Assembly (NCBI GenBank): GCA_046563655.1
Contig: CM102285.1
Location: 1,674,001-1,738,000, forward strand
DNA from: Yuukianura sp. NJ FZ-2021
Lineage: Eukaryota
Reading direction: 5' to 3'
Length of the DNA: 64,000 nt
The position numbers were made by a program, and so were the translations under genes. Under the pieces are notes generated by a model. That model had not been told where the DNA came from and searched no databases. It saw only the letters and a program-made list of their open reading frames with translations. Positions 1-64,000 of this stretch are shown here, piece after piece (positions within the stretch are counted from its first letter, which is position 1; each line of letters starts with the position of its first letter).

Positions 1-1170
1 ACGTTCCAGCAACATCAATCGCTCGGAAGCCGTTTCAGCCCCTACTGGCAACGTCATATTGAATGGGTAACTGAAAGTGTGGATTGTTTTTTAAAACCAA
101 ATTTTTGAAAATGTGGTCTGAAGATTTTCTAGTGTACATAAATTGACAAAGTAGCAAAATTTAAATTACGTATTGTCGTTTTACATTTGATTTGTCAGTT
201 GGTTTGAATGGTTCGGAAAAGTTGTGAACGTGAGGCATTGCATTTCCTTTGGAATTGGTTTCTCTTCGTTTTGAAGCTTCCGCCGAATTGCTCCTGTGAA
301 TACCTCCATCATCACGGTCGACACGGAAACGTTGACCTTTGACCTTAACTGTTTCACTTCACCAAGGTCAAATGTCCTTGACATAGGTAAGTACCTAACA
401 GTAGAGATTCCAGGATTCCAATATGATTGTGATTTGCACACTGCACGGTAGATGAGGTCCAAGTACGATCCGATGCAGTACCACACACGCCGGAAAAAAC
501 CGAAGCAAGATTTTGGCGGTTCTTCTGGAAGTTGAAGTCTTTGAACTTCCGAGTCAGCAGCAAGCATCAAAACTTTAAAAATTGCTTCACCATCGGACAA
601 GCAATGGTCAAATTTGAAACAAATGAAGTGACAATTTGAGTTTTCGCCAAATTCCAAAAATGTAAATTCCCACGGACTGGATTTTTCCGGGAATGGAGTC
701 TGGAGCAATTGCTCGAACTGCGCATGAGCGTCAGCCTCTTGGTCCAACGTCACGTGATGAATGTGTTTGTCCATGTCGAATGACTCCTCCCACTTCCAGA
801 AGGCGTATCCACCAAACATAGTTGGATACTGCTGGAATTCGGGATAAACGAAGTCACCCGAGTCATTCCGAGCGAAAATGCACTTCGTTCGGAATCGCTC
901 TTTTACTAAATCAGAGTCTAATTTTCCAGAAACTTTGAACCAAATGAGGACCTGGAATGCTGGATGAGATACCTTCGAAAACAGAAATTGACTCTGCGGG
1001 GATAAAATTTTGCACAACTTTTTTGAAAGGCATGGCACAAATTTTGCCAAAATTTGTCTGTAGATCAAAATTGGCGATGTGAGAAAGACGAATAAAAGGA
1101 ATGCAAATCCTAGAAGAACTTTTAAAACACAAGTATGCAACTGTTTTAACTTTTTTATATTTGAACACAT
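1..1170 (-). CDS. W1: WS/DGAT-like O-acyltransferase, subfamily A, 3' end outside the window (exon 1 1170-185, exon 2 from 70 to the window edge)
   Basis: ATG at 1170 (MCSNIKK), DHCLSDG motif. Phase-2 GT-AG intron 184-71 joins NQ-IYPFNMTLPVGAETASERL, as in paralogs. Confidence 0.85.
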
Positions 1171-1369
1171 CGCCTCTACTTTTAGTAACAGTTGACAACA
1201 GTTGACCAATGAAAAACGAAAGTTGAATTGATTACGAATTTTGTTTGTATAATGTTTTTGTCATTGTTTTCGAAAGTTGATCGAAAGCCAAAGCTTTTTC
1301 TTGTATCATCTTGCATAATCTTGTATCTTCACGAATCACATCGAAGCCAGTTAGCTCAACAGCAATTAC

Positions 1370-4267
1370 CTAAGCACTTTTCGTTAGCTCGGACACAATT
1401 GAACTTATGTTAGAATGAAGTACATATAGCTCTTGTAGTTCTTCTTCTATGTAGGCTGTAAATTCCGCTGAACTTTTTTCCGTTGAACAAACACTTCCTT
1501 CCACACCAATCCAGTAGCGAAAGGTTCCGTTGTAAGACATAATGCTTGCTCCCAGCGCTATACAAAACATTTTAAGTAATTTATGCATTTAATTTAAATT
1601 GAACACGCTGTATATTTTTTGTTTGTTGTTTTTTTTGTACAGGTAATATATCAATAATATGTGTGACATGGGTCCTTGCCATTAGCTCAAAAAATTAGGT
1701 AAGCAGCTTTATGCTAGAGGTTGCATGAAAATACTATATTTATGAAAGCATTGTAATTAAATAAGCTAGAATTTATACGTAACCGTGAATAAAATTGAGT
1801 AAATTTTTACCTAATTGCATTTTTGAATTGCTTCCCTAATTTTTCTGATCTAATAGAATGCTTCGTGTTGTCGATGTAGTATATTGTTAGCATTCAAGAT
1901 ACTCGATATTGCATACTGTGTGTTACAAGTAATATCCATTTGCTCCATACCTTGAAAAGGACCTTCGCTGATATATGCCATGTCTTCCACGACGTTTCCA
2001 CAAATAGAAATTGGTTTTATTGGTCCAGGGAAAATGCTTACGGTTGCAGAAACACTGCAATTGGCCAGAATTTTGGAAAGGAACCAGTGAAAAGGGCTAC
2101 AAGGTGGCCAACCAATGACGATTTCCTTTGACGTTCCGCTTGTGCTTGGTTTTCCAGCAACATCATTCGCTCGGAAGCCGTTTCAGCTTCTACTGGCAAC
2201 GTCATGTCAAATAGGTAGCTGAAAATTTGAATTTTCTTTTAAAACTGTTTTTTAAACCCAAACTTTCGAAATTGTCCTCTTAGGTTTTTCAAAGTGGACA
2301 AAAATTTACCAACTAGCAAGATTTAAATTAAGTACCGTAAATGCTCTAATGCAAGCGCGTATTCTAATAGAAGCGCATACTCTAATGCAAGCGCGGTTTC
2401 AGCGGGGGCAAATTGCGATATAAGCGCGGTAGCTAACTTGAGTTTAAAGCAGAGCCTAGAGCAAAGTGACATCATCTGTTTAACTTCTATGATGCTAATT
2501 TGACTCAAATCAAAATGTAGCACTTAAATACAAGTTTTAAAAATGGTGTAACTAAAATACGATCGTTTGATCTCAGTTAAAAGTGGTTCAGTACGCTTCT
2601 ACTAATACCACGGATGGTAACACAGCTCACTTCGGAATACACCGAAAACAAGTCTTCAGTTGGCTGAAGCAAAAGGATAATATCGGTAAAAATTTAACTA
2701 ATTTTACCTTTCGACTCGAGAAAACAACTTTCTAAAGAAGCAGACAAAATGGTTTACGATTGGATTTTAAATCAGCGCACCAACCAGCAAAGTGTCTCCT
2801 TCAAATCTATTCGTGTGAAAGCTAGGGAAGTCTACTCTGCAGTGCTTCAAACAAACGAATTTCATGCCAGCAGTGGTTGGCTACAAAAATTTATGAAGCG
2901 CCATGACCTCAGTTTGAGAAAGAAAGCGTCGTTGGCTCAAAAAGATCCAAATTCGTTATTTGAGTAGCTTGTCGAGTTCGTCATGTACACTTCCAACCTC
3001 GCTGTTACGAATAAAATTTCCAACCCAAATATTATTGCCATGACTGGAATATTTTTTGACATGCCAAGTATTACTACAGTGGGCACATTTGGAGGAGGCT
3101 TGAAGAAAGCAACAGTGACACCAGCGACGAATGGGATCACTATTAATTGAATTTGATCTCACCTAAAACTTATTAATTATTGCGGTAATAAATAGTGTTC
3201 TAATAGAGGCGCGTCCGAAAGGTCGAAAATTCTTATAAGCGGCGCGCTTATATTAGAGCATTTACGGTATTGTCGTTTTACATTTGGTTTGTCAGTTGGT
3301 TTGAATGGTTCGGAAAAGTTGTGAACGTGAGGCATCGCATTTCCTTTGGAAATGGTTTCTGTTCGTTTTGAAGTTTCCGCCGAATTGCTCCTGCGAATAA
3401 CTCCATCATCACGGTCCACACGGAAACGTTGACCTTTGACCTGATTTGTTTCACCTCACCAAGGTCAAATGCCCTTGACATAGGGAAGTGCTTAACACTA
3501 GAGCTTCCAGGATTCCAATATGGTGGTGATTTGTAGACTGCGCGGTAGATAAGGTCCAAGTACGATCCGACGAAGTACGACACTCGCCGGAGAAAGCCGA
3601 AGCAAGACGATGGCGGTTCTTCTGGAAGTTGAAGTCTTTGAACTTCCGAGTCAGCAGCAAGCATCAAGACTTTAAAAATTGCTTCACCATCGGACAAGCA
3701 ATGGTCAAATTTGAAACAAATGAAGTGACAATTTGAGTTTTCGCCAAATTCCAAAAATGTAAATTCCCACGGACTGGATTTTTCTGGAAATGGATTCTGG
3801 AGAATCCGTTTGAACTGCGCATGAGCGTCAGCCTCTCGGTCCAGAGTCACGTGATGGATGTGTTTGTCCATGTCGAATGACTCCTCCCACTTCCAGAAGG
3901 CGTATCCACCGAACATAGTTGGATACTGTTGGAATTCGGGATAAACGAAGTCACCCGAGTCATCCCGAGCGAAAATGCACTTCGTTCGGAATCGTTCCTT
4001 TACTAAATCACGATCCAATTTTCCGGAAACTTTGAACCAAATGAGAACCTGGTATGCTGGAGAAGATCCTACGGAAAATAGAAACTGACTCTGCGGGGAT
4101 AAAATTTTGTACAACTTTTTTGAAAGACATGGCACAAATTTTGCTAAAACTTGCCTGTAGATCAAAATTGGCCATGTGACAAAGAAGAATAGAAGGAATG
4201 CAAATCCTAGAAGAACTTTTACAACAGACGTATGCACCTGCTTTAACTTTTTTATATTTGAACACAT
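1370..4267 (-). pseudogene. W2: WS/DGAT-like gene, subfamily A, frameshifted in exon 2 (exons 4267-3282, 2218-1951, 1557-1370)
   Basis: Exon 1 is open with DHCLSDG. Exon 2 is 268 bp rather than 278; the net 10-bp loss after GSFPK gives a premature TAA at 2040-2038. Intron 1 holds a 933-bp transposon. Confidence 0.8.
2335..3267 (+). mobile_element. Non-autonomous pogo/Tigger-like DNA transposon with a CENP-B-type HTH transposase fragment
   Basis: TIRs CCGTAAATGCTCTAAT(GC/AT)AAGCGCG, 23/25 match. TA duplication at 2333-34 and 3268-69. The W1 intron shows the empty site (ttaaattacgTAttgtcg). ORF 2749-2967 contains FHASSGWLQKFMKRHDLSLRK, typical of the pogo/Tc5 HTH. Confidence 0.9.
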
Positions 4268-6133: not shown

Positions 6134-7975
6134 TTAAACAAGTCCGCCCTCTGTGTCTGAAAGCATGTCATCAAGCTCATCTGCGATGTAGCCAGCAAAT
6201 TCTGTTGAGCTTTTTTCTGTTGAACAAATCTTGCTATCCACTGATATCCAGTAACGGAATGTTCCATTGTAGGAAATAACGCATGCAGTCAGCTCTACAA
6301 AGAAAAAGTTTGCTAAATAATTTATGGAAAGCTATAAGTATATGTTGTAATATATCAATAATTTATGTTATAAATGTTAATACGAAAATTTATGTTAGAG
6401 TAAAGTTATAATATGACAATTATGTTCACATATCAAACATTTTGTCGTACACTAACTTGTTAGAATTTATGTTTTAGTATGTTAATATCCTTCTATCGGT
6501 TTAGCATAATATATGTACATGTTTCAATACTTTACTGTGTTTTGCATATTACTAGTATACCGAATTGTTGCATACCTTCAATACAACTTTCGACAGCGTA
6601 CGCCATATCTTCAACAACATTTCCACAAATAGAAATTGGTTTTGTTGGCCCAGGAAAAATGCTTACCACCGCCGAACAGCCCGGGAACAGTGGAATTAAC
6701 CAGCGCATTGGAAATGAACCAATGAAAAGAGATACCAAATAGCCAACTGATGAGGATTTCCGTTGACGTTCCGCTTGTGCTTGGCTTTCCAGCAACATCA
6801 GTCGCTCGGAAGACGTTTCAGCTCCTACTGGCAACGTCATGTCAAATATGTAACTGAAAGTTTGGAATTATTTTTAAAAGGACTGTTTTTTGAAGCTTAA
6901 AAATTTAAAAAATTTTTCAAGCAGTGCTCGATGTTTTTAAAAGTAAATTAACTAGCTAGCCAGATTTAAGTTAATTATTGTCGATTTACAGCTGGTTTGT
7001 CAGTTGGTTTGAATGGTTTGGGAAACTTATGAACGTAACGCATCGCATTTCCTTGGGAATTGGCTTCTGTTCGTTTTGAAGTTTCCGCCGAATTGCCCCA
7101 GTGAATAACTCCATCATCACGGTCCACACGGAAACGTTGAACTTTGACCTCAACTGTTTCACTTCACCAAGGTCAAATGTCCTTGACATAGGTAAGTACC
7201 TAATCGTGGAAATTCCGGGCTTCCAATATGATGGCAATTTATAGACTCCGCGGTAGATAAGTTCCAAGTACGATTCGATGCAGTACGACACACGCCGGAA
7301 AAAGCCGAAGCAAGATTTTGGCGGTTCTTTTGGAAATTGAAGTCTTTGAACTTCCGAGTCAGCAGCAAGCATCAAAACATTAAAAATTGCTTCACCATCG
7401 GACAGGCAATGGTCAAATTTGAAACAAATGAAGTGACAATCTGAGTTATCGCCAAACTCCAAAAACGTTAGTTCCCACGGACTGGATTTCTCTGGAAATG
7501 GACTCTGGAGCATCCGTTTCAACTGCGCATGAGCGTCAGCCTCTTGGTCCAACGTCACGTGATGAATGTGTTTGTCCATGTCGAATGACTCCTCCCACTT
7601 CCAGAAGGCGTATCCACCAAACATAGTTGGATACTGCTGGAATTCGGGGTAAACGAAGTCGCCCGAGTCATTCCGAACGAAAAGGCATTTCGTTCGGAAT
7701 CGCTCTTTTAATAAATCAGAGTCCATTTTTCCAGAGACTTTGAACCAAATGAGAACGTTGAATGGTGCATAAGGTCCACAGGAATAGTAAAGTTGGCTTC
7801 GCGGAGACAAAATTTTTCCCAACTTTTTGAAAAAGCGTGGTCCAAATTTCGCTAAAATTTGTCTGTAGATCAAAATTGGCCATGTCAGAAAAAAGAATAG
7901 AAGAAATCCAAATCCTAGAAAAACTTTTACAACACATCTACGCAACTCCTCAAACTTTTTTCTGTTTGAACACAT
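6134..7975 (-). CDS. W3: WS/DGAT-like O-acyltransferase, subfamily A, 474 aa (exons 7975-6990, 6853-6576, 6294-6134)
   Basis: Spliced frame open (986+278+161 nt). DHCLSDG, SIFPGP and ISYNG motifs; canonical splice sites. Confidence 0.88.
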
Positions 7976-8751: not shown

Positions 8752-10728
8752 TTAAGCAGTCATGCTTGACTCCAACTGTAGTAGCTCACGAAGTTCATCA
8801 TCAAGGTATCGAACAAATTCCGCTGAGTTTTGTTCTGTGTAACAAATTTTACCATCGACTCCCAGCCAGTACCGAAACTTTCCGTTGTACGAAGAAATGT
8901 TAACCATCAGTGCTAAAGAACAAAGTAATTTCAGGTTAACCAAATATGTTTTAGGTATAATATGTTGTGTGGTATATATTGTGTATTGCTGTTATTTTGC
9001 CTGAGTATGATTCAAGCTGTACACATAATATGTTACATAACCGAACGTCTTTACTATACGTTTCGTTACTTGTTTTGAGGATAACGCACAAGGCTGTCTG
9101 ACAACAAAACGCGAATTTTCTTTAATAGATTAGATACTACCTCATTTGTTGACAAAAAAAAACAAGAATTGGTATCAATCCAAAGAAAATGGCGCCAATT
9201 TGTATGCAAAATTTAAAAATTCGGCTGTATCGTTATGACTATAATGCCTCGAAATGAAGGGACACTTTTGTTTTGCGAAATCAAAAAAAAAACATGAGGT
9301 ATTATGCAACCTATTAAAGAAAATTGAAGTCAACAAACCTCGATAACGCATGTCTTTGAAGTGTTTTTATCGTTTTCATAAAATTACGCACCATGAGTGC
9401 CACCATGTACAGCGTATGCCATATCCTCCACAAGGTTTCCACCAATAGAAAATTGTTTCGTTGGCCCAGGAAAAATACTTGTGACTATCGAATTTACAGG
9501 AAGGAGAGGAGCCATCCAGCATGTTGGCATGGAACAATTGAGAAGTTGTAAGAAATATGCCACCAAACTAGACTTCACTATACGTTCTCTTTGTGTTTGA
9601 CCTTCAAGCAACATCAAACGTTTTAACCCACTCGCAGTTTCAACTGGTAGTGCCATGGCAAGCATCATACTGAAAAATAATCAAAACTGTACTAAAGTTA
9701 CAATGGAAACTATAATGTTTCAACGTATATGAATCAAAATCTGAACTTTACACTTTGTTTGTCAAGTTCTTCGGGTGGTTTGGAGCCAAAACGGTAGTCA
9801 TACAAAGCATGTGGCTTGGAATTGGCTTTTTCTCAGTTTGGAGTTTCCTTCGTATGGCTCCTGTGAGTACTCCTACCATCGCCATGGACACGGACACATT
9901 GACCTTTGACTTCAACTGTTTCGCTTGACCCAGGTCAAATGACCTTGACATTGGAAAACGGCTGACCCCGGTAAGATTTGAACCATCGAAAATCATTGGA
10001 GTTGTGTCAGTAGCATTGTAAATTATATTGAAATACGAACTGATGAAATAAAAAATGTTTCGGAAAAAACCGAAACAGGAAGTTTGTGGCTCTTTTGGAA
10101 ACTGAACTCGATGGGGTTCGGAGTCCGCCATACGCATCAAAGCATCAAAAATTGCTTCACCGTCACACAAACTGTGGTGAAATTTGAAGCAAATGAAGTG
10201 ACAACCTGAGTTATCGCCACACTCCAAAAATGTCGCTTCCCACGGACTAGATTTTTCTGGAAGCGGAGTCTGGAGCATCCGCTCGAACTGCGCATGAGCG
10301 TCAGCTTCTTGGTCCAAAGTGACGTGATGAATGTGTTTGTCCATGTCGAATGACTCCTCCCACTTCCAAAAGGCGTATCCACCAAGCATAGTTGGATACT
10401 GCTGGAATTCGGGATAAACAAAATCACCCGACTCATTCCGAACAAAAATGCATTTTGTTCGGAGCCGTTCTTTGATTAATTCACAGTTCGACTTTCCAGA
10501 AAGTTTAAACCAAATGAGAACATTAAATGCTTCTGGGCGTTTGAAGCTAAAGAAAAATTGGCTTTGCGGAGATAGAATTTTACCCAACTTTTTGGAAAAG
10601 TATGATCCGAATACACTTAGAATTTGTCTGTAGATCAAAATCGGGAATGTTAAAGGAATAAACAGAAGAAATCCCACCCCAAGAATAAATTTTAAAACAC
10701 TAATACGTAACTTGCTGATCGAGAACAT
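8752..10728 (-). CDS. W4: WS/DGAT-like O-acyltransferase, divergent subfamily D, 471 aa (exons 10728-9752, 9669-9392, 8912-8752)
   Basis: Spliced frame open (977+278+161 nt). HHSLCDG, SIFPGP, SSYNG. Confidence 0.88.
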
Positions 10729-12220: not shown

Positions 12221-13959
12221 CTACACATTTTTCGTAAGTTTCGACACCGTTGAAGGAATGTTAGTGTGACGTATTTCTTGTAGCTCTTCGTCTATATAGT
12301 CCGCAAACTCGGTTGAACTTTTTTCCGTTGAACAAATACTTCCGTCTACTCCAATCCAATAGCGAAAGGTTCCGTTGTAGGACACAATGCTTGCTCTCAG
12401 CCCTACAAAGTGTAGGTTCAATTAATCGGCACGGCATCAAGCTTGTTTAACTCGAAATTTTGTTTATTTCTTCTTACGCCACTTTAGTATAAATGGTCGC
12501 TATAGCAACCTTGATCGGCGTAAACGCGGATGTTAAAACTGTCATCGATGTAGTGTATTGATAGCATATGTCGCAATACTTTAAGGTAATAGTGTAAGCT
12601 AATAGTATACACATTTGTTCCATACCATGAAATGTGCTGTCGGCAGCATAGGCCATGTCTTCCACAACGTTACCACAAATAGAGATTGGTTTTGTTGGTC
12701 CCGGAAAAATGCTTACTACTGCCGAAATGCCCGGGAACAGTGGAATTAACCATCGCATTGGAAATGAACCAATGAAAAGGAAGATAATGTAGCCAACTAG
12801 CGACGATTTCCTTTCACGTTCAGCTTGTGCTTGCCTTTCGATCAACGTCAATCGCTCGGAAGCTGTTTCAGCTCCTACTGGCAACTTCATGTCGAATGAA
12901 AAACTGAAAATAATAAGTTTAAAAATTTTTGAGTTTTTTCTTAAGTTTGAACAAAAATTGAACAACGGATTTAAATTAAGTGTTTTCACCTTACATTTGG
13001 TTTGTCAATTGGTTTGAATGGTTCGGAAAAGTTATGAACGTGAGGCATCGCATTTCCTTTGGAATTGGTTTCTGTTCATTTTGAAGTTTCCGGCGAATTG
13101 CTCCTGTGAATAACTCCATCATCATGGCCCACACGGACACGTTGAACTTTGACCTCAACTGCTTCACTTCGTCAAGGTCAAATGTCCTTGACATAGGTAA
13201 GTGTCTAACCATAGAAATTTCAGCATTCCAGTATGATGGTGATCTGAACACTGCGCGGTAGATGAAGTCCAAGTACGATCCGACTAAGTACGGCAATCGA
13301 CGGAAAAAAGCGAAGCAGGACTTTCGCGATTCTTGTGGAAGTTGAAGTCTTTGAACTTCCGAGTCAGCAGCAAGCATCAAAACTTTAAAAATTGCTTCAC
13401 CATCGGACAAGGAATGGTCAAATTTGAAAGAAATGAAGTGGGTTTCGCCAACATCCAAAAATGTAAATTCCCACGGACTGGATTTCTCTGGGAATGGAGT
13501 GTGAAGCATCTGTTTGAACTGCGCATGAGCGTCAGCCTCTTGGTCCAAAGTGACGTGATGGACGTGTTTGTCCATGTCGAATGACTCCTCCCACTTCCAG
13601 AAGGCGTAGCCACCAAACATAGTTGGATACTGCTGGAATTCGGGATAAACGAAGTCACCCGAGTCATTCCGAGCAAAAATGCACTTCGTTTGGAACCGCT
13701 CTTTTAGTAACTTAGAATCCAACTTTCCAGAAAGTTTGAACCAAATGAGGACATTGAGTGGTGCGTGAGGTCCAAAAGAAAATAGAACCTGGCTTTGCGG
13801 AGATAAAATTTTCCCCAATTTTTTGGAAAGGAGAGGTCCGAATTTGGCTAAAATTTGTCTGTAGACCAAAATCGGTAATGATAGAAAAATGAATAGTAGA
13901 AATCCTATGCCTAGGATAACTTTTAGGATACCCCTGAACAAGTTATTATTTAACCTCAT
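12221..13959 (-). CDS. W5: WS/DGAT-like O-acyltransferase, subfamily A, 474 aa (exons 13959-12995, 12903-12626, 12402-12221)
   Basis: Spliced frame open (965+278+182 nt). DHSLSDG motif. Confidence 0.88.
12438..12513 (-). mobile_element. ~75-bp short member of a CAA...TTG-ended non-autonomous element family, in W5 intron 2
   Basis: Reverse-complement match to both ends of the element at 55181-55474, lacking its inner inverted-repeat segment. Confidence 0.6.
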
Positions 13960-14066
13960 AATGCTAGGCAGTTAGCAAACCAACGTTTCGTGTAATTTGG
14001 AATTCCATAAATGGACGAACTCCTTTTATATACCTTTAGACCAAAAAAATGATCACAGTTTTTGTA

Positions 14067-14425: not shown

Positions 14426-14599
14426 ATATTCGCTGCATGCTGATTAGTAAACATATAATGCTACGTTTTATACTGCATCCCAGGTATTGCGCGACGCTTA
14501 TTTTTATCTTATTTGCATATTAAGGTTCGGTCTGTCGTTCTTTTATAATTAACTATCAACCGGCTAGACTTGGACGCCTGGAGTTACGTTGTCGTTATG

Positions 14600-15635
14600 T
14601 TTCCTGTTCCGTGACATCAACCGTTGATAGCATACGCCATGTCCTCCACCACATTTCCACCAATGGAAAATGAACTCGTGGTCCCAGGAAAAACCTCTTT
14701 ACAACCAACTATTTAAGCCCGAATACTGGAAGGAACCTAACTATGAATTCAGCCAATCGGAATACAACAGCCGATTTCCTTGGTTCCATGCCATTTATCA
14801 AATGAATATCTGAGAAAGTCGAATTACTGCGAATGAATTATTTCGAAAGGTTCTCAACTGGGAGCGAAAGGAACTACGAATCGGATTACCGCGACAGTAG
14901 AATTATTACGAAAGTATTCCTTGGAAAGGCGTATTACTATGAAAGTTGAACAATGAAAGAGATGAAGTCATAACCTAACCCAAAAATTGTACTCACTATT
15001 GTCCAGTTAATAACGTAACTCACTGTGAGTTACTCACAGCGCGGGAAAATATAATGACTATAGTCATTAGAGGTTTTTGGTTAGGCTAGGTTATATTCGT
15101 ATCTCTTTCGTTGTTCAACTTTCGCAGTAATTCGATTCGTAGTAATTCATTCGCAGCGAATCGTTTTGCAGTAATTCTTTCGATGAAATGCCGTGCTACC
15201 ATTTCGTTTTGAGCTCTGCATTTGCGTTGCCTTCAAGCAATGTAAGTAAATCTTTCACGCGTACTTGCACTTATGATTGGCAAGGGCGAATCAAGGATGT
15301 ATTTCAAAAAGTATATAGAAAATCGCTTATAAAGGTACAAATTTTTCAAAAAAAAAATATCGAAATAGAATATGTTTGTATACACTCTATTCCTGGGTTT
15401 CTTGGGATGATTTGGTGCAGAAATCAATGTGTTGAATTATATTTCCCGGGGAACTAATTTCCTTTTGTTTTTAAGCTTTCTTCGAACACGCACACTTTGA
15501 GTTTTGGACTGTTTCGCCCGATCCATGTCAAATGACCTTGAAATTGGAAAACATCTCACCCCGGTAAAATTTGAAGAATCAAAAATCATTGGAATTGCAC
15601 CCGCTGTGCCATAAGTGACATTGGAATAAGACGTT
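14600..15635 (-). pseudogene. R1: decayed WS/DGAT-like remnant, subfamily C-like (3' part of exon 1 plus exon 2, split by a transposon)
   Basis: Recognisable GGNVVEDMAYAING- and APNHPKK-coding DNA with indels. The 5' two-thirds of exon 1 is deleted, so the family upstream motif (15700-15745) abuts directly. Confidence 0.8.
14782..15200. mobile_element. Foldback-like insertion in exon 2 of remnant R1
   Basis: Imperfect long inverted ends built of GAATTACTGCGAA units. Flanked by the near-duplicated exon sequence ATTTCCTT / ATTTCGTT (~8-9 bp TSD); internal TAACCTAACC. Confidence 0.65.
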
Positions 15636-46717: not shown

Positions 46718-48754
46718 ATGGCTGGAAGACTGCCTGCATGTGTCATCGACGTTGGGACTGGGTGAAACATTCATTTATTCATCATCAGTTTAATTACTTT
46801 GATTTCCAATTACTTTGGGATGAGTAATTGAATGATCATCAACATAGATTTTGATAATCTAGGTATACCAAATTGGGATTTGCTGGAAACAAGGAACCAC
46901 AATTCATATTTCCATCGGCAATTGGAATTAAGGAAACTGCCAAGGTTGGTGATCAGAGTAGTCGACGATTGACGAAGGGCGTTGAAGATTTAGACTTCTA
47001 CATAGGCGATGAGGCTTTTGAGAATCCTGGATATGCTGTGAAGGTAATGCAATATGGAAATACCTGTACACTGTAGAACAATGGTAGAATAGGGAACATG
47101 CAATATGCAAGAGATTGGGTGATTTAGGTTTCTTGTGTTTTACAATTTTCAGTATCCTGTTCGTCATGGGCTTGTCGAAGACTGGGACTTGATGGAAAAG
47201 TATTTTGAGCAATGCATTTTCAAGTATTTGAGAGCTGAGCCCGAAGACCACCATTTTCTACTCACCGAACCACCGCTCAATACCCCAGAGAACAGAGAAT
47301 ATACTGCAGGTTAGTATGGTCAAGATCATACACAAAACTTCAACTTTGCTTTCCTGTAACCTTGTGCTAAGAATTAGGCATGATTCTAGTTCATGATTAA
47401 TGATTCAATGTGATGAATATCGTGTTTTCAATTTTTCAGAAATCATGTTTGAATCCTTCAATGTTCCTGGACTTTACATCGCAGTTCAAGCTGTTCTTGC
47501 TTTAGCTGCCTCTTGGGCTTCACGACCACTCGAAGAAAGAACTTTGACGGGAATCGTAATTGACAGTGGAGATGGTGTCACCCATGTCATTCCAGTAGTA
47601 AGTTTACTTTTAACCAAAAGTTGAAATTAAGTCATCCGTGATCCGTATTACGGAATCAGTAACGAATCACAACTTCGCACTCTCCATGTATCCATGTACT
47701 GATTAGGCAGAAGGCTACGTCATCGGAAGTTGTATCAAGCACATTCCCATTGCGGGGAGAAACATCACCTACTTCATCCAATCGCTGTTGAGAGAGCGTG
47801 AAATTGGAATTCCACCGGAACAATCACTGGAGACGGCCAAGGCAATCAAGGAGAAGTTTTGTTACATTTGCCCCGACATTGCAAAGGAATTTGCCAAATA
47901 CGATGCTGATCCATCAAAATGGATCAAGAGATATGAAGGCATGAACTCCGTGACAAGACAACAGTTTAGCGTGGACGTCGGCTATGAACGTTTCCTCGGG
48001 CCAGAGATTTTCTTCCACCCTGAAGTAAGTAAAAATTGAAACCTTAACTGGATCAGCTGTCTATCGGTGCATTAAATCCTTGTTATTTTTTATGATACAG
48101 TTTGCGAATCCAGACTTTGTGACACCAATTTCTGAAACAGTGGATACTGTGATACAAAACTGCCCGATTGACGTCCGGCGTCCACTTTATCAAAGCATTG
48201 TTCTCTCTGGCGGATCCACAATGTTTCGTGACTTCGGCAGACGACTTCAGCGGGACATCAAGCGAGTTGTCGACGGTCGCCTCAAATTGAGTGAAGAACT
48301 GAGTGGAGGAAGAATCAAGGTAACTAAAGTCATTCTGTTAATCTAACTAACCTAACAATCTAAGTTAGGATCGTTAGATTATCTAACCTAAACTTACTTC
48401 CTGTTCGGAGTTCGTCGGAACCTCCGGAAATATTCTATTCTGTTTAAGGTAGAAGATACACTTTGTGTATTTTTCATTTTTAGCCTAAACCAATGGACGT
48501 CAATGTCATCACGCATCATATGCAGCGGTATGCTGTGTGGTTTGGCGGAAGCATGTTAGCATCCACGGTAAGGAATCACGGATTACTCCAATTAACAACT
48601 AATTTCGAATCTTAATTTTTGAAAACCACAAATCAAAATTAATTTTCGATATTTCCAGCCCGAATTTTACAAAGTGTGCCATACGAAGCAAGCATATGAA
48701 GAATACGGTCCAAGTATTTGTCGTCACAATCCAGTCTTTGGTAACATGACGTGA
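46718..48754 (+). CDS. Arp3: Actin-related protein 3 (Arp2/3 complex), 418 aa; exons 46718-46761, 46863-47043, 47153-47309, 47440-47597, 47707-48024, 48101-48319, 48484-48567, 48659-48754
   Basis: [29 protein letters not shown]...[30 protein letters not shown]...[14 protein letters not shown]...[12 protein letters not shown]. All introns are GT-AG and the total is 1257 nt. Confidence 0.98.
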
Positions 48755-49032: not shown

Positions 49033-50124
49033 TTACTTCTTGCGATGTTTTCCCAGGAATGGGTTGTTGTCCAATTCGTAATCCAGACTAGCAAACGTGT
49101 GATTGACATCTCTGTGATTTGCTTCATCTGCGCGAATGCATAGGATAACGTCCTTGACAGTTGCGTCTTCTGGAAGTTTGTAGTACTTCCGAGCAATAAG
49201 TGGAGCTTGTTCCTGTTTCCATGGTAGCAGTTTCTGATTGGTTTCGATATCTTGAAGGAGCGTAGAGTAGGTCTTGACAGCCTCTTCCTCAAGGTATCCA
49301 ACGAAACGATGACAAGTTCTTGGAGTAAAGAGATAAGTTAGGAAGAATACGTTGAAGAAGATTCCTTGTGCTCCGATAACCATCAGACGAAAGAAGAGAT
49401 TTGGATCCTTCAAGGTCATGAAGATGAGTAAGTGCATTCGTTCGTTTTCAGCCTCTTCGAGTAACGTGTGTATCCAACCATGGTCTCTCTTCATGGACCG
49501 AAGAGACTTCAAATGTCGGGCCATTCCCGCCACCATTCCTAAACATCAACGAAGTTAATTCGTATAAGATCCAAACTTAACAAAAGTTAAACTTAACATG
49601 AATGTTTGCGTACCAGGAACTCCTGCGACGGTCTCGAGGAAAAGACACCGATTCAGCCAGTCATTTCGAGTCATTTCTCCTCCAGGTCCTCTGTAGCGTG
49701 AAACAAAGTCGAAGCCACTTCGCATCAGCTTTACAGCAAACAGGGCCAACCGGTCCTTGACCTTGGCTGGTTCATGATGTGTTTTCTGGATGTGAACGAG
49801 GTCATCTTTGGTGTAAATGGGATGAGGAACTGGGTTGTCCCAGTAGGATGTGGTCACCTTCTTGGTAATGTCTTCTCCGAGAGGATGTTTGGACGTGGAT
49901 AACTTGAAGTGGACATCTCCAGGTTCCTGTGTCGAGGTGCTTCCAGTTCCGGTACTGCCCGTGGTGGTTGAAGAGGAAGTGGTTTTGGAGTTGTGTCGAC
50001 ACTGATTCAATGATGGATTGTAATGAATATGTTTGTAAGCGATAGAAGCAACTGATGGAACGGGAAATGAAAGTCTGGAGAGCTGGTCGACAGATTGGCG
50101 CAGAATGAATACTGACAATGACAT
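49033..50124 (-). CDS. AOX: Mitochondrial alternative oxidase (di-iron ubiquinol oxidase), 338 aa; coding exons 50124-49614 and 49538-49033; probable 5'UTR intron 50349-50280
   Basis: All four iron-ligand motifs present: LETVAGVPG, EEAENERMH, GYLEEEA, RADEANH. The N-terminus is Ser/Arg-rich like a transit peptide, and the phase-1 GT-AG intron joins VPG-MVAGM. Confidence 0.97.
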
Positions 50125-52527: not shown

Positions 52528-54367
52528 ATGGCGACTCTGACGGCAGTTTGCTCCATCTGCAAGGACTCGATAATAAAGCTGCAAAATCCGGAGCCTCGAC
52601 CTCAGCTCCACCCGTCCCTCCAAATCCCCGATAATGTCAACGCAGTGGTGGCTCTGTGTGGCCATACTTTCCACTCATATTGCATTATGCGATGGATGCA
52701 GTAAGAATATTTTATTTATTTGCACATATTTTTCATTTCATAAATACTTGAAGTTTGGTTATTTCTAGATAATCGGTTAACTCTTTGTAAATTGTTCCGT
52801 TTAATTGATTTTTGTAGTAGCAGCATCAATCCGTCTTGTCCGAATTGTCGAAAGGCTATCTCTGGAAGAGGGAATTGTATCCCCATCTACTTCGATACTT
52901 ATGACATGAGCTTGGACTCGTCAACAGCTGGTTCGGCAGACACTGATGCTTTGCAAGAAGAAAACGCTGCTTTGAAACGCGACATTCGAAAAGTTCAAGC
53001 TGACATGGACCGTCTCAATGCTACCACCACTAGTCTTCGTCAGATAAATCAAGTGCTAAGGTATTTTCGTGATTTCTTACCAAGCCAAACTTTCTTATGA
53101 TTTCGATTTCGGCTTATTTCGTTATTGCTAAACTTTCTTTTATTGTGTCTTTTTTTGTTGGCAGTCTTGAGAATTCGAGTTTGGTTCAGCGATTACAAAC
53201 CGAGGAGGCAAAGAGTGACGCCTATATGATGCGATGCCAAGAGGCTGCCAGTTATAAGTCCTACGCTGAGCAGAAGGAACGTGAATGCAAGAAAGTTAAA
53301 GATGAACTCGAGACACTGCAATAGTAAGCTTTTTTTTAAATGTCATCATGGGTGACTGACAGTCATTTCATTCTGTAATACAAATTCTTAGCGTCAAGGC
53401 GATTGTCGAGGGAGTCCGTTTCAATCCAGAGGAGGAGTTTAAGACGTTCCCTGTCACAAACGAATCTATCAAAAGTCTCATTCAACTCAAGAATGTTCTT
53501 CAACAGTATGTCAGTTTTAAGTTTACAGATTGTTTACATAAACTAATTACTTTTTTTTCATCACGATAAAGGGAGATTGAGAATGCTAAGATCAAGCATC
53601 AGAAACATAATGTTCAAAAGGAGGAGAGTAGAAAGGAAATTCTAAAACTCCGTAGTGAAATTCGAAAACTGACGACGGACAATGATGATCTCAAGTTTCA
53701 GTTACAAAATACACAACGTAGTAGGAGGGTCGCTGTAAGTTTGCATAACTTATTGGTGCACTTTGCTGTACATGCATAAATTAAGATAGTTTAGGCAAAT
53801 ATTTTCAGAATGCTTTATGTCATTTTTCCAGCCGACTTCTACGTTTACGTCCGCTGCTGGTTCATCTGAATCCGATGATTCTCCGATTATTACGCCCAGG
53901 CCAAACCGTTTAGCCACGCTTGATGACAGTATTGAAATTCTTGGTGTCTTCAATGGGGATGACAACGATGATGATGTCGGACTTATCACAGGATTAGGTA
54001 CAGGACTCAAGCGAAGTCGAAGCAAAGTTGAGAAAACCAAACCGCCACCAGTGCCCAATAAAAGTGTTAAACGAGCTGACTCTTTGGTTGCCACTCGACG
54101 TGGTCGAGGTGTTCCCGCTGTAAGTCACGAGTCAAACATACTACGCAATTGAAGTAATCGAAGTCACTAAATTACTGAATTACTGATGGTAATCGAAGAC
54201 TGGAGAGTTACGTTAATCATTTATCCTTACCATTTCATTTGTAGGAGCCACTTTCTCCTCTGAATGTGCGTTACCGATGCGGAGTTCCCGGAATGCCTAT
54301 CGACGGACTCGTTCGTTCGACGAAAGGTTCGACTAAATCGTCGGCCAGACCTAACTGGAAACTTTAG
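52528..54367 (+). CDS. RING-H2 plus coiled-coil E3 ubiquitin ligase, TRAIP/NOPO-like, ~420 aa; exons 52528-52700, 52818-53060, 53165-53323, 53392-53505, 53572-53734, 53832-54119, 54245-54367
   Basis: N-terminal CSIC...CGHTFHSYC...W...CPNCR, then a long charged heptad region and a low-complexity tail. Frame consistent (1263 nt). Orthology to TRAIP is not proven. Confidence 0.82.
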
Positions 54368-56464: not shown

Positions 56465-58228
56465 CTATGGAACCAGTTCGTATTTAACACCCGTTGATCG
56501 GATAGTCTCGTCGAGCTCATCTGCAATGTAGTCAGCAAATTCTATTGCACTTTTTTCTGTTGAACATATTTTGCCGTCTACTCCAATGCAGTATCGAAAT
56601 GTTCCGTTGTATGAGGCAACAAGCACCGTCAGCCCTGTACAGATATATATCTCGTTATAATAATTATACATGCTGAACACTATAGTTGATATGTATAACG
56701 TTACGTGTTGTGTTATACACATGTTGCTCAGTACAATTTACATTGTTAAAAACAAGTAAGTGTTGATATCACAACACGATATTTACAGATAACTTGACAA
56801 GTTAAAACGGACATTTATATAAATGAATATCCATATAAAGGTACATGAGTAGCACATGACATGTATTTAATTTAATTAATAGTTTCATCGATATTTTCCG
56901 TTTACCATAAGAACAACCGTTGAAAGCATACGCCATGTCCTCCACCACATTTCCACCAATGCAAAATGCCTTCGTAGGTCCAGGAAAAACACTGATGACC
57001 ACCGTGTTAAGCCGGGCAACTGGAAACATCCACCGCATTGGCAATGAACCAACAAATGCAGCCAACAGGAATCCAACCGAAGCCGATTTCCATCGGCGCT
57101 CTGCATTTGCATAGCCTTCCAGCAGTGTCAATCTTTCATGGGCACTGGCAGCTCCGACTGGCAAGGGTATGGTAAGGATGTACCTTACAAACAAACAAGT
57201 TGGTTATAAAATTACTACGCTTTCAAAAAAATAAAATCTCTCTGTTTGCTCGTATACACTTTATTTGTAAGTTTATTGGGGTGATTTGGCGCGAAAATCG
57301 GCGTGATGCATGGCATGTCACGTGGAACTGACTTCCCTTCCTTTTGAAGTTTTCTTCGAATTGCTCCTGTGAGTAGCCCAATCATCGCAATGGACACGGA
57401 CACGTTGAGTTTTGAACTCAACTGTTTGACTTGACCCAGGTCAAATGACCTTGACATTGGAAAGTATCTCACCCCGGTAAGATTGGAAGAATCGAAAATC
57501 ATTGGAGTTGCATCCATTGAATCAAAAATGAGATTGAAGTAAGAGGCGATGAAATACAAGATACGTCGGAAAAAATCCAAACAGGATGTTCGCGGTTCTT
57601 CTGGAAATTGGATTCGTTGAGGCTCGGAGTCCGCCACACGCATTAAAACATCAAAAATTGCTTCACCATCACACAAAGTGTGGTGGAATTTAAAACAAAT
57701 GAAGTGACAATCTGAGTTATCTCCAAATTCCAAAAATGTCGCTTCCCACGGACTCAATTTTTCTGGCACAGGACTGTAGAGCATCCTCTCGAACTGCGCA
57801 TGAGCGTCAGCCTCTTGGTCCAGAGTCACATGGTGAATGTGTTTGTCCATGTCGAATGATTTCTCCCACTTCCAGAAGGCGTATCCACCAAACATAGTTG
57901 CGTACTGCTGGAATTCGGGATAAACGAAGTCTCCCGAGTCATCCCGAGCGAAAATGCATTTCGTTCGGAACCGCTCTTTTACTAAATCACTGTCCAGTTT
58001 TCCCGAAACTTTGAACCAAATGAGAACATTCTGTGCTGTGTCGCAAGATGCGTATATTTGACTTTGCGGAGGCAAAATTTTGTGTAACTTTTTTGAAAAC
58101 AAGGGTGCAAATTTTGCTAGAATTTGCCTGTAGAGTAAAATGGGCAAAGTTAGGCAAATAAATAGAAAAAATCCAACACCTAGAAGAAATTTGGCTACTA
58201 ATTTGACTATTGATTTGAAGAAATCCAT
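56465..58228 (-). CDS. W15: WS/DGAT-like O-acyltransferase, subfamily C, 472 aa (exons 58228-57258, 57183-56906, 56634-56465)
   Basis: Spliced frame open (971+278+170 nt). HHTLCDG. Confidence 0.88.
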
Positions 58229-59626: not shown

Positions 59627-59659
59627 ATTGATACCTTTACTTAAGCATACAAAACCTTC

Positions 59660-62221
59660 CTATGGAACCAGTTCGCATCCAACCCCCGTTGAGCGAATAG
59701 TCTCGTCGAGCTCAGCTGCAATATAGTCAACAAATTCTACTGCACTTTCTTCTGTCGAACAAATTTTGCCGTCTACTCCAATGCAGTAGCGAAATGTTCC
59801 ATTGTAAGATGCAATCATCGCCGTCAGCCCTGTACACATATATATTTCGTTATAATAATTATACATGCTGAACAATGTATTTGATATGCAGTACGTTACA
59901 TGGTGTGTAATACAAATGTTGCTCATTACAATTTACATATTGCTCAAAACAAGAATTAAAAATTGTATTAGTGTTATGAACTCTGATATTACCACACGAT
60001 ATTTACAGAAAACTCGACTATTAAAACGGATATCTATATATAAACATATCGTGTGTTCATTAAGTAAGTTAAACGCTTGAAGTGAAAGTAGAAAGTGAAA
60101 TGGGCGGAGCGAACAGGGCGAGAGCTACACCATGGGGGGAAGTTCGTGCAACTCCCCATATTATGGTTAGGACCTATGTTCCCTATAAAACCGATCATGT
60201 TTCAAAAGGTAATAATACAGGAGTGACATGGAAACCTGCATACCATAAATTTGTTTCCCTGGCAACAGCTAAAATTATGGAGGCGAAAAGTAACTTTTGC
60301 GCTGACAACTTTGATTCTGTTTGAAAAACTATCATTTCGGTGGTTTTCATGAAACCGATTACCCCCCCCCCCCTTGCAGGTTTTCGCGTGGCACTCACTG
60401 TATATATAGGTTAACCAATTATTATATATTCTATTATTATATATTTTATTATATATTATTATATAATAGTTTATATTATATTATAATTAGAGATAATATT
60501 ATTCCAATATAGAATAATATATAGTAGCATATTATAATTAAATATGATATTATATAATAATTAGTATTATTCTTATATACCATTAAAATCTAATTAAACT
60601 ACATCATTATTATATACTTATATATAATATACATTATTAGTATAATAATTAATTAATAATCAATTATACATAGAATGAATGATTTCATGTGAAAGTCAAA
60701 GTCAAACGGGCAGGCTATCGCCAAAATTTTCCCTCGATGACTCCCTTTCCCGCTCAGATTCCACCCCAAGCTGCAACCTCCTTATCCACATGAAATGAGG
60801 GAAGCGTCTAACTTACATTCTGAACACACGATATGAATAGCACGAGACACGAATGTAATTTAATTAGTTTCATCGAAATTTTCTGTTTACCATAACAACA
60901 ACCGTTGATAGCATACGCCATGTCCTCCACTACATTTCCACCAATGGAAAATGCTTCCGTAGGTCCAGGAAAAACGCTCACAATAACCGTGTTAAGCCGG
61001 GCAATTGGAAATATCCACCGCATTGGCAATGAACCAATCAATGCAGCCAACAAGAATCCAACAGCAGCCGATTTCGTTTGGCGCTCTGCATTTGCGTAGG
61101 GCTGGAGCAACGCAAGTCTCTCATGAGCACTAGCAGTTCCGACTGGCAAGGGTATGTCAAGGATGTACCTTATAAACAAACAAGTCGGTTATAAAATTAC
61201 TACTCTTTCATAAAAATTAAAATAATCTCTGTTTGTTCGTATACACTTTATTAATAAGTTTCTGGGGGTGATTTGGCGCATAAATTCCAGTGATGCATCG
61301 CATTTCACTTGGAACTGCCTTCCCTTCGTGTTGAAGTTTTCTTCGAATTGCCCCTGTGAGTAGCCCAATCATCGCAATGGACACTGACACGTTGAGTTTT
61401 GAACTCAACTGTTTGACTTGACTCAGGTCAAATGACCTTGACATTGGAAAATATCTCACCCCGGTAAGATTAGAAGAATCAAAAATCATTGGAGTGGAAT
61501 CCATTGAATCAAAGATGAGATTAAAGTAAGAAGCGATGAAATAAAAGATACGTCGGAAAAAATCCAAACAGGAAGTTGGCGGTTCTTCTGGAAGTTGGAT
61601 TCGTTGCGGCTCGGAGTCTGCCACACGCATCAGAACATCAAAAATTGCTTCACCATCACACAAACTGTGGTGGAATTTGAAACAAATGAAGTGACAATCT
61701 GAGTTATCTCCAAACTCCAAAAATGTCGCTTCCCACGGACTGGATTTTTCTGGAAGAGGAGTCTGGAGTATCCTCTCGAACTGCGCATGAGCGCCAGCCT
61801 CTTGGTCGAACGTCACGTGATGAATGTGTTTGTCAATGTCGAATGACTCCTCCCACTTCCAGAAGGCGTATCCACCAAACATAGCTGGATACTGTTGCAA
61901 TTCAGGATAAAAGAGGTCACCCGAGTCATCCCGAGCGAAAATGCACTTTGTTCGGAATCGCTCTTTTACTAAATCAGAGTCCAACTTTCCAGAAACTTTA
62001 AACCAAATGAGAATATTGAATGCTGTGTGGAGTCCGGAAGATGAGTATGTCTGACTTTGCGGAGGCAAAATTTTGTGTAACTTTTTTGAAAACAAGGGTA
62101 CGAATTTTGCTAGAATTTGTCTGTAGAGTAGAACGGGCAAAGTTAGGAAAATAAAAAGAAGAAATCCAACTCCGAGAGCAAATTTTGCTACTATTTTGAC
62201 TACTGATTTGATGAAATCCAT
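59660..62221 (-). CDS. W16: WS/DGAT-like O-acyltransferase, subfamily C, 474 aa (exons 62221-61245, 61168-60891, 59829-59660)
   Basis: Spliced frame open (977+278+170 nt). HHSLCDG. Confidence 0.87.
60049..60831. mobile_element. 783-bp TA-flanked element in W16 intron 2 with a nested 183-bp MITE (60218-60400)
   Basis: Outer TIR TCGTGTGTTCA....GTAAGTTA.ACGCTT. Inner imperfect TIR CAG(T)GAGTG..A..G..AAACCTGCA, also TA-flanked. Confidence 0.8.
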
Positions 62222-62247
62222 TGCAAAGTTAATTCGTGTTCTTATAG

Positions 62248-63085: not shown

Positions 63086-63192
63086 ACCTGCTCACTGGTA
63101 GTGCATGTTATCATAATTACGGGTAGATTATTGTAATTACTATACTTAATACTATACTATACTAAACCTGTACTTAATTATGTTAAACCTTC

Positions 63193-64000
63193 CTATGGAA
63201 CCAGTTCGTATTCAACGCCCGTTGAGCGGATAGTCTCGTCGAGCTCAGCTGCAATATAGTCAACAAATTCTATTGCACTTTCTTCCGTCGGACAAATTTT
63301 GCCATCTACTCCAATGCAGTAACGAAATGTTCCATTGTAAGATGCAATAGTCGCCGTCAGCCCTGTACAGATATACATTTCGTTATATCAAACCTTGCAA
63401 AGACGATATAAATAAGTATCGTCAGATTAATTATAGTGAATTCCCGTGCAAAATATTGTCGACCTTGGAAATTAATAATACTAGAGATCACTTTGAGATG
63501 AATCCGAAAACTGATTTTTAGTCAGGAGGTCAGCAGTTACTAATTATTAAAGAAAACCGCTTAGAAATCAGAGTAGTGGTTATTGAGTTATAAGCGTTAC
63601 AGACGGACGGACGGACAGACACGGACGGATGGACAGACGGGCAATACAATCCCTATCTGACGATACTAAATAATTATACATGCTGAGCAATATATTTGAT
63701 ATGTACTAGTTATTCACACGATATTTACAGATAACTAGGCTATTATCGATATTTTCTGTTTACCATAAGAACAACCGTTGATAGCATACTCCATGTCCTT
63801 CACCACATTTCCACCAATGGAAAATGCCTTTGTAGGTCCAGGAAACGCGCTAGCGACCACCGTATTAAGTCGGACAACCGGAAACATCCACCGCATTGGC
63901 AATGAACCAATGAATGCAGCCAACAGGAATCTAACTGCAGCCGATTTCGTTCGGCGCTCTGCATTTGCGTAGCGTTCAAGCAATGCCAATCTTTCATGGG
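63193..64000 (-). CDS. W17: WS/DGAT-like O-acyltransferase, subfamily C, 5' part outside the window (exon 2 from the window edge to 63764, exon 3 63362-63193)
   Basis: SAFPGPTKAFSIGGNVV and ASYNGTFRY...YELVP*; canonical splice sites. Confidence 0.82.
63385..63669 (-). mobile_element. DINE-1/HINE-like element in W17 intron 2
   Basis: 13-bp subterminal inverted repeat AGTATCGTCAGAT, (GTCC/GTCT)n microsatellite and a 3' stem-loop TTATATC...GATATAA. No clear TSD; absent from the W15 and W16 introns. Confidence 0.75.

What the first reader, a model, noticed from the sequence alone, without database searches (positions are those of the whole stretch)
1..64000. Large tandem expansion (17+ copies, open at both window edges) of membrane-anchored WS/DGAT-type acyltransferases in an animal genome
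Seen: 13 intact, 2 partial and 2 frameshifted three-exon paralogs plus remnants, all co-oriented, with an N-terminal hydrophobic segment, (H/D)HxLxDG, FPGP and SYNG. Known: these motifs define the bifunctional WS/DGAT (AtfA/WSD) family, characterised mainly in bacteria, plants and protists, whereas vertebrates make wax esters with unrelated DGAT2-type enzymes. Inference: this is a lineage-specific ester-synthesis cluster under birth-and-death evolution, possibly making cuticular waxes or defensive/pheromone esters. It is the best candidate here for an undescribed system.
Basis: partly seen in the sequence, partly recalled or inferred. Interest (0 to 1): 0.85.

Follow-up and report, generated by a model that had tools for sequence, protein, structure and literature searches.

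The report
Springtail-type wax synthase gene array
A soil arthropod, most likely a springtail, carries at least 17 side-by-side copies of a membrane-anchored ester-making enzyme of the bacterial and plant wax-synthase type; the array is real, such expansions are already listed for springtails, and what the enzymes make is still untested.

Summary
The array is real: 17 co-oriented three-exon genes, 13 intact (471-487 aa), 2 frameshifted, 2 cut by the window edges, plus remnants. It is not continuous: an 11 kb block with an actin-related gene, an alternative oxidase and a RING gene splits it 14 + 3. Copies are 56-87% identical with dN/dS 0.23-0.40, so they are paralogs under purifying selection, not uncollapsed haplotypes. 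PF03007, PF06974, the HHxxxDG motif and the fold place them in the WS/DGAT (WSD) family. It is not an undescribed system: all 20 organism-named relatives looked up are springtail proteins, and genome papers list this expansion (Orchesella 24, centipede 14; Folsomia 116 'putative DGAT'). This scan saw a three-gene version in another invertebrate genome. Specific here: a distinct subfamily, a DHxxxDG variant in 6 copies, and a ~300 bp tract ahead of the catalytic motif homogenised across all copies, probably by gene conversion. Most likely ER-anchored acyl-CoA:alcohol O-acyltransferases with diversified acceptors. The cuticular-wax idea is weakened because Folsomia and Orchesella cuticles are reported as terpene- or alkene-dominated. 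No expression or activity data.

The parts
63193..64000 (-). U01, WS/DGAT copy cut by the right edge (part of exon 2, exon 3); clade C-like
59660..62221 (-). U02 intact, 474 aa, HHSLCDG; exons 62221-61245, 61168-60891, 59829-59660
56465..58228 (-). U03 intact, 472 aa, HHTLCDG
52528..54367 (+). Interrupting gene: N-terminal RING finger plus coiled coil (TRAIP/NOPO-like label is recalled); ends read by eye
49033..50124 (-). Interrupting gene: alternative oxidase, about 339 aa, one intron, oomycete-associated type
46718..48754 (+). Interrupting gene: intron-rich actin-family gene (Arp3 label is recalled); ends read by eye
43281..45362 (-). U04 intact, 481 aa, HHYLCDG
40434..42145 (-). U05 intact, 487 aa, HHTLCDG
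37765..39943 (-). U06 intact, 474 aa, HHCLCDG; homogenised tract at about 39359-39661
34773..36614 (-). U07 intact, 486 aa, HHCLCDG
34147..34412 (-). Degenerate exon-1 remnant
31102..32918 (-). U08 intact, 474 aa, HHSLCDG
27441..29429 (-). U09 intact, 483 aa, DHCLSDG; mosaic: clade B gene with a clade A catalytic-motif segment
25297..27009 (-). U10 intact, 481 aa, DHCLSDG
23607..24095 (-). 5' remnant with stops and frameshifts
20652..22483 (-). U11 intact, 479 aa, HHCLCDG; clade B body with a clade C-like C-terminus
17646..19363 (-). U12 frameshifted (two single-base deletions in exon 1), HHSLCDG
14592..15655 (-). Degenerate remnant of late exon 1 and exon 2
12221..13959 (-). U13 intact, 474 aa, DHSLSDG
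8752..10728 (-). U14 intact, 471 aa, HHSLCDG, most divergent copy
6134..7975 (-). U15 intact, 474 aa, DHCLSDG; exons 7975-6990, 6853-6576, 6294-6134
1370..4267 (-). U16 frameshifted (10-nt deletion in exon 2), DHCLSDG; intron 1 enlarged to about 1.06 kb
1..1170 (-). U17 cut by the left edge (exon 1 whole, start of exon 2), DHCLSDG

Best explanation
A tandem radiation of one subfamily of arthropod WS/DGAT (WSD-type) acyltransferases in a soil hexapod, most likely a springtail (about 85%). Each intact gene encodes a ~475 aa protein: an N-terminal hydrophobic helix (shown as hydropathy and predicted helix; ER anchoring inferred) followed by the two-lobed CoA-dependent acyltransferase fold (shown by profile and predicted fold). 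By analogy with bacterial and plant WSD enzymes (recalled, not tested), the second His of (H/D)HxxxDG activates a lipophilic alcohol that attacks an acyl-CoA thioester and releases an ester. The copies arose by tandem duplication and unequal crossing-over, some decayed, and gene conversion keeps a ~300 bp stretch ahead of the catalytic motif alike while the rest drifts apart (pattern shown, mechanism inferred). I infer that paralogs differ in acceptor or donor preference and supply a range of specialised esters (fatty alcohol, terpenol or sterol acceptors) rather than bulk storage fat.
For: PF03007 in 15 of 15 exon-1 translations at E<=0.01; PF06974 in 14 of 14 exon-2 pieces at E<=0.05, 7 of 14 above the gathering score on exon 2 alone. 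Only PDB sequence hit of the window profile: Acinetobacter WSD 7nxg, E 6.6e-08; a profile of 66 relatives hits 7nxg at 1.3e-36 and 6chj at 4.6e-29 over the whole length, next hit 0.051. Full-length springtail relative P0022 folds best onto Marinobacter WS/DGAT 6chj (Z 30.5, rmsd 2.8, 346 aligned). Second His, Asp and Gly of the motif kept in 16 of 16 copies that include it. dN/dS 0.23-0.40 in 78 of 78 pairs. Synonymous diversity at invariant residues 0.129 inside alignment columns 100-200 (46 columns) against 0.358 outside (87), scan-corrected permutation p=1e-4; within- and between-clade values are equal in the tract (0.149, 0.151) but not elsewhere (0.204, 0.397), and U09's motif segment groups with another clade at bootstrap 97. 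Host: 20 of 20 organism-named relatives are Collembola; the neighbouring AOX is of the oomycete-associated type reported for springtails.
Against: No activity, localisation or expression data. Identity to characterised WSD enzymes is only 15-18% in structural alignments. The exon-1-only model of a window copy cannot tell WS/DGAT from NRPS condensation domains (Z 14.4 for 4jn3, 13.1 for 6chj), and AzeD dehydratase scores Z 28.0 for the full-length relative, so the fold does not fix the reaction. Six of 16 copies have Asp for the first His, and the Asn of the bacterial SNVPGP motif is a hydrophobic residue in all 13 intact copies. The tract folds better than codon shuffles in 5 of 5 copies tested (z -1.5 to -4.2, not independent), so an RNA-level constraint is not excluded. 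No named springtail AOX was among the 120 listed AOX hits; the best named ones are sciarid flies.
Confidence: 0.68

Rival explanations
1. One reading: the array makes cuticular wax esters (fatty acyl + fatty alcohol) for the water-repellent surface, or ester pheromones.
For: Wax esters occur in the cuticle of Tetrodontophora bielanensis (linoleyl palmitate); Anurida maritima has a multi-methyl-branched ester as a major epicuticular compound and Sminthurides has two alkyl acetates. Membrane-anchored plant WSDs make cuticular wax esters.
Against: Springtail epicuticles typically hold two or three major compounds, 16 of 23 species use higher terpenes; Folsomia candida shows terpenes and Orchesella cincta methyl-branched alkenes, yet these are the species with listed expansions. 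That study left out glycerides and compounds under C20. No fatty acyl-CoA reductase gene was seen among the ORFs examined in the window.
Confidence: 0.27
2. The family is a conjugation or detoxification system: it acylates dietary, fungal or microbial alcohols and phenols (or the animal's own defence compounds), expanding like P450, esterase and GST families do in soil hexapods.
For: Birth-and-death pattern with divergent non-core regions; expanded alongside P450 families in O. cincta; one O. cincta gene model joins a P450 and a WS/DGAT (P0141); the fold is shared with trichothecene and BAHD acyltransferases.
Against: No P450 or similar partner in this window. The F. candida paper does not name this family among the largest stress-responsive expanded clusters, and the metal-tolerance column was empty in the O. 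cincta rows seen.
Confidence: 0.25
3. The enzymes are DGATs or wax synthases for internal storage lipid, amplified for dosage.
For: Many bacterial WSDs are bifunctional and make TAG; RefSeq and UniProt name relatives 'diacylglycerol O-acyltransferase'.
Against: Those names are transferred by similarity. Dosage would favour whole-gene homogenisation, but copies differ by 13-44% in protein outside a short tract. Animals already carry DGAT1 and DGAT2.
Confidence: 0.12
4. Some or all copies do a different reaction on the same fold (N-acylation, transacylation) or the DHxxxDG copies are weak or non-catalytic.
For: Same fold as NRPS condensation domains, AzeD and BAHD N-acyltransferases; first His replaced in 6 of 16 copies.
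Against: Sequence profiles point to WSD, not to condensation domains (PF00668 in 1 of 15 at E 0.0054). First-position substitutions occur across the family: among 157 relatives the pattern matched 126, with H in 102, S in 10, D in 5. DH copies are intact and under the same purifying selection.
Confidence: 0.1
5. Assembly artefact: uncollapsed haplotypes or misjoined reads.
For: No reads or genome were available to check the assembly.
Against: Closest intact pair is 87% identical in protein with dS 0.22; the best long self-match is 91% over 1.1 kb; introns and spacers differ in every unit.
Confidence: 0.02

Closest known systems
Collembolan WSD1-type O-acyltransferase expansion (O. cincta cluster orthomcl285, PMC4987106 Table S5; F. 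candida 'putative diacylglycerol O-acyltransferase', PMC5490193; Allacma fusca and O. dallaii proteins)
   Same: Same domains, N-terminal hydrophobic helix, length 470-530 aa, alignable over the whole length; large copy numbers; three O. dallaii relatives have near-consecutive accessions on a contig of one length, suggesting an array there too.
   Different: Only 21-27% identical to the named proteins; the window copies fall in a separate group with unnamed metagenome proteins (34-39%; bootstrap 100 for the group). DH variant and homogenised tract are seen here.
Bacterial WS/DGAT: Acinetobacter baylyi AtfA/WSD1 (7nxg), Marinobacter aquaeolei WS/DGAT (6chj)
   Same: PF03007 + PF06974, HHxxxDG, PGP and SY motifs aligned in register, same fold.
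   Different: 15-18% identity; extra ~50-residue N-terminal hydrophobic helix; introns; SNVPGP reads S-[VIAM]-FPGP; first His is Asp in 6 copies.
Plant WSD (Arabidopsis WSD1, Petunia WS1, Klebsormidium WSD1)
   Same: Same two Pfam domains, membrane-anchored multi-gene family, some making cuticular wax esters.
   Different: No direct sequence comparison was made; function in the animal is untested.
NRPS condensation domains, AzeD, PapA5 and BAHD acyltransferases
   Same: Same CoA-dependent acyltransferase fold and HxxxDG-type motif.
   Different: Lower whole-length scores than WSD for the full-length relative (Z 28.0 AzeD, 22.8 and below for the rest, against 30.5) and no significant sequence-profile match.

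Membership tests
WS/DGAT (WSD, AtfA) family | N-terminal PF03007 domain | tested here: met
   15 of 15 exon-1 translations at E<=0.01, best 1.3e-11; 3 of 3 shown above the 23.6-bit cut-off.
WS/DGAT (WSD, AtfA) family | C-terminal PF06974 domain | tested here: met
   14 of 14 exon-2 pieces hit at E<=0.05, 7 above the 20.7-bit cut-off although exon 3 was not joined; 0 of 2 exon-3 pieces hit alone.
WS/DGAT (WSD, AtfA) family | HHxxxDG catalytic motif | tested here: met
   HHxLCDG in 10 and DHxLSDG in 6 of the 16 copies that include it; aligned to HHAMVDG of 7nxg. The canonical double His is not met in the 6 DH copies.
WS/DGAT (WSD, AtfA) family | Two-lobed fold closest to solved WS/DGAT | tested here: inconclusive
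   Met for the full-length springtail relative P0022 (6chj first, Z 30.5). The window's own exon-1 model (pLDDT 90.8) gives 6chj the best query TM-score among listed rows in Foldseek (0.51-0.52) but ties with condensation domains in VIA-align. A spliced window protein could not be folded.
WS/DGAT (WSD, AtfA) family | Wax ester synthase and/or DGAT activity with acyl-CoA | not testable with these tools
   Needs an enzyme assay.
Collembolan/arthropod membrane-anchored WSD group | Whole-length similarity with N-terminal hydrophobic helix | tested here: met
   U07 aligns to the C-terminus of 27 of 157 relatives, best E 2e-46; hydropathy; nearest Atlas clusters are mostly Arthropoda.
Collembolan/arthropod membrane-anchored WSD group | Shared intron after the LTN-x-x motif | tested here: met
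   Same position and phase in 8 of 8 metagenome loci with a whole exon 1 (10 loci fetched); 81 of 157 database relatives end at N-x-x, as unspliced gene calls would.
NRPS condensation domain | PF00668 match and place in an A-T-C assembly line | tested here: not met
   PF00668 in 1 of 15 members at E 0.0054; stand-alone genes with a stop after exon 3; no adenylation or carrier domain among the ORFs scanned.
DGAT2 / MBOAT-type animal wax synthases | DAGAT or MBOAT Pfam domain | tested here: not met
   No such family in any Pfam scan of the copies.

The most novel reading that the evidence does not exclude
Springtails run a large, untested ester- or amide-forming chemistry on the WSD fold: paralogs share one gene-converted catalytic cassette, swap HH and DH versions of the active-site segment between clades, and diversify the acceptor-binding parts, so the array works as a recombining library of acyltransferases for unusual branched, terpenoid or defensive compounds. 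It would be the first such enzyme class shown in animals.
Probability: 0.2. Interest if true: 0.68.

Novelty: new member of a known kind. Interest (0 to 1): 0.33.

Why it matters
WSD-type enzymes are studied in bacteria, plants and protists and are wanted for wax-ester biotechnology; my 10 literature searches found no biochemical test of an animal member, although springtails hold tens to more than a hundred copies. Thirteen intact paralogs in three clades with a natural His/Asp contrast at the active site are a ready panel to ask what animal WSDs make and whether they build the unusual springtail surface or defence esters. The locus itself is one more example of an expansion already listed in genome papers, so the gain is a testable panel and not a new system.

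Tried and rejected
No whole genome is held, so the true copy number and the array's ends are unknown. A single-sequence homolog search found nothing (0 of 364 candidates); profiles were needed. No RNA holder was listed for 47,000-53,000, the only stretch asked about, so expression was not examined. The first metagenome scan, with the window profile, confirmed 0 of 156 stretches. Rfam: 0 matches in the window. Uncollapsed haplotypes rejected. NRPS condensation domain rejected on profile and context. A sciarid fly host considered because of the AOX hits and set aside: the window AOX is 70-72% identical to the two sciarid AOX over 265 columns while those two are close to each other, and the WS/DGAT relatives are collembolan. 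Horizontal origin of the WS/DGAT family was not tested; the O. cincta table shows best hits in Nematostella, Capitella and Strigamia, which fits an old animal family with losses. Antisense ORFs over exon 1 of three copies were treated as shadow frames and not pursued. Literature searches that returned no paper on arthropod WS/DGAT function: (others: 27, 45, 63). The F. candida supplement was cut when stored and did not show gene lists, so the identity of its 116-gene family with PF03007 proteins is inferred. Two papers on WSD catalysis were not held; residue roles are recalled. My hand-read Arp3 exon coordinates were off and gave no usable model.
Full report
Observation. Spliced models give 13 intact proteins of 471-487 aa with GT-AG introns at identical positions (intron 1 59-136 nt, intron 2 133-1061 nt). 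U12 has two single-base deletions in exon 1 and U16 a 10-nt deletion in exon 2; U01 and U17 run off the window. The count of 13 + 2 + 2 is right.

Not an artefact. Among the 13 intact copies protein identity is 56-87% (median 65%), the smallest dS is 0.22, and dN/dS is 0.23-0.40 in all 78 pairs. The best long self-match at DNA level is 91%. These are diverged paralogs under purifying selection. The assembly itself could not be checked against reads.

Family. PF03007 matches 15 of 15 exon-1 translations and PF06974 14 of 14 exon-2 pieces, 7 above the curated cut-off. The window profile finds one PDB sequence, Acinetobacter WSD; a profile of 66 relatives matches both solved WS/DGAT enzymes end to end, with HHxxxDG, PGP and SY in register. 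The predicted structure of a full-length springtail relative ranks Marinobacter WS/DGAT first (Z 30.5, rmsd 2.8 over 346 residues), then AzeD (28.0) and condensation domains (22.8 and below). The window's own exon-1 model is confident (pLDDT 90.8) but, lacking the C-terminal third, ties WS/DGAT with condensation domains. All 13 intact copies have a strongly hydrophobic N-terminal segment, predicted as a long helix. Two departures: Asp for the first His in 6 of 16 copies, and no Asn in the SNVPGP-equivalent motif. First-position changes are not rare in the family (H 102, S 10, D 5, other 9 among 126 matched of 157).

Host and distribution. The profile search found 949 representatives at E<=0.001, 150 listed. 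I looked up 29 of these, mostly full-length; 20 carried an organism name and all 20 are springtails (Allacma 12, Orchesella dallaii 4, O. cincta 2, Folsomia 2). Full-length relatives are only 21-27% identical to a window copy. The closest relatives (34-39%) are unnamed and form one group with the window copies (bootstrap 100; 7 of the 13 copies were put in that tree). Ten loci of that sister group, all from one metagenome assembly, were fetched; they have the same three-exon layout, with intron 1 at the same base in 8 of 8 loci with a whole exon 1. ESM Atlas clusters nearest to the family are mostly Arthropoda. The AOX in the interrupting block groups with oomycete and sciarid AOX (bootstrap 93); a 2026 preprint (10.64898/2026.06.01.729305; abstract and passages read) reports an oomycete-derived AOX in 48 springtail species and notes one in fungus gnats. 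A springtail host is therefore likely but inferred; no named springtail AOX was in the listed hits.

What is already in print. The O. cincta genome paper (PMC4987106; one main-text passage and rows of Tables S3 and S5 read, one supplement file not searchable) lists cluster orthomcl285, annotated with InterPro WSD1 N- and C-terminal domains, as expanded: 24 genes in O. cincta, 14 in the centipede Strigamia, 2 in Aedes, 1 in Tribolium, 0 in the seven other species, with best hits in Nematostella and Capitella. The F. candida paper (PMC5490193; passages and one section part read) names a 116-gene 'putative diacylglycerol O-acyltransferase' family among its largest expansions; that it is this family is inferred from the matching RefSeq name of P0057, since the stored supplement was cut. 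PMC13161914 (passages) also says WSD1 occurs in some invertebrates. So an animal WS/DGAT expansion is not undescribed. Ten searches found no biochemical study of an animal member; the library lacks most subscription journals.

How the array evolves. The copies form three supported clades plus U14, interleaved along the DNA. Columns of about 95-200, ending at the catalytic motif, are far more alike than the rest at silent sites: 0.129 against 0.358 at invariant residues, in both two-fold and four-fold codons, scan-corrected p=1e-4. In columns 95-165 clade structure vanishes (within 0.149, between 0.151). U09 is a clade B gene whose motif segment, DH included, groups with clade A (bootstrap 97); U11 has a clade C-like C-terminus, with weak tree support. 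A PHI-type test of my own gives p=0.001, though rate differences along the gene can add to that. Among eight sister-group loci the same tract is not clearly depressed (0.474 against 0.491 and 0.572, close to saturation), which favours local gene conversion. Against that, the tract folds better than shuffles (z -1.97; -1.5 to -4.2 in 5 of 5 copies against values from -3.5 to +1.5 in other windows), so an RNA-level constraint remains possible; Rfam finds nothing. The three right-hand copies arose by tandem duplication of a unit that includes the 3' flank of the RING gene: 54,362-55,180 recurs at 62,248-63,074 (73% over 870 nt), replacing U02's usual upstream region.

Mechanism. Shown: domains, motif, fold class, hydrophobic N-terminus, purifying selection, mosaic evolution. 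Inferred from bacterial and plant WSD (Introduction and passages of PMC12062176; residue roles recalled): an ER-anchored enzyme in which the second His activates a lipophilic alcohol for attack on acyl-CoA. I put 0.68 on acyl-CoA:alcohol O-acyltransferases with diversified acceptors. The product is open. Cuticular esters exist in some springtails (PMC10284698 passages; PMC11321324 passages), but that survey finds two or three major compounds per species, mostly terpenes, and reports terpenes for F. candida and branched alkenes for O. cincta, which does not call for dozens of wax synthases. Conjugation of dietary or defensive compounds is about as likely as cuticular wax; bulk storage lipid less so.

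Verdict. Observation confirmed; family call right; novelty overstated. A new, well-preserved member of a known but enzymatically untested arthropod expansion, with a gene-converted catalytic tract and a His/Asp variant as its particular features. Interest 0.33.

Noticed in passing
window 49033-50124 (-): Alternative oxidase, about 339 aa with one intron, grouping with oomycete and sciarid AOX and not with the mollusc AOX in the tree; fits the horizontally acquired springtail AOX of a 2026 preprint. The F. candida gene is reported with three introns, this one has one in the coding part.
   Followed up: partly
window 54362-55180 and 62248-63074, 58509-58719: The 3' flank of the RING gene, starting at its stop codon, is duplicated directly upstream of U02 (ending about 27 nt before the ATG) and in part upstream of U03; U02 lacks the upstream block shared by U03, U04, U06, U08 and U12 and may be regulated differently.
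   Followed up: partly
window 2333-3269: About 0.9 kb insertion in intron 1 of U16 bounded by 27-nt inverted repeats, like a non-autonomous DNA transposon.
   Followed up: no
window 33316-33789, 14073-14413, 14930-15134, 59408-59626: Several short elements with inverted-repeat ends in spacers between units; probably MITE-like.
   Followed up: no
about 30-45 nt upstream of the ATG of U03, U04, U06, U08, U10, U12: A conserved pyrimidine-rich stretch ending in AG suggests an intron in the 5' UTR and a non-coding first exon, so the genes may have four exons.
   Followed up: no
protein P0141 (Orchesella cincta ODM94569): A 937 aa gene model joining a cytochrome P450 and a WS/DGAT; probably neighbours merged by annotation, echoing an earlier scan note of WS/DGAT genes beside P450s.
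   Followed up: no
L001 722-1210 (-): A second, divergent family member on the opposite strand of the same short contig.
   Followed up: no
window 21722-22093, 35874-36224, 41384-41755 (+): Antisense open frames of 116-123 codons over exon 1 of three clade B copies; treated as shadow frames.
   Followed up: no
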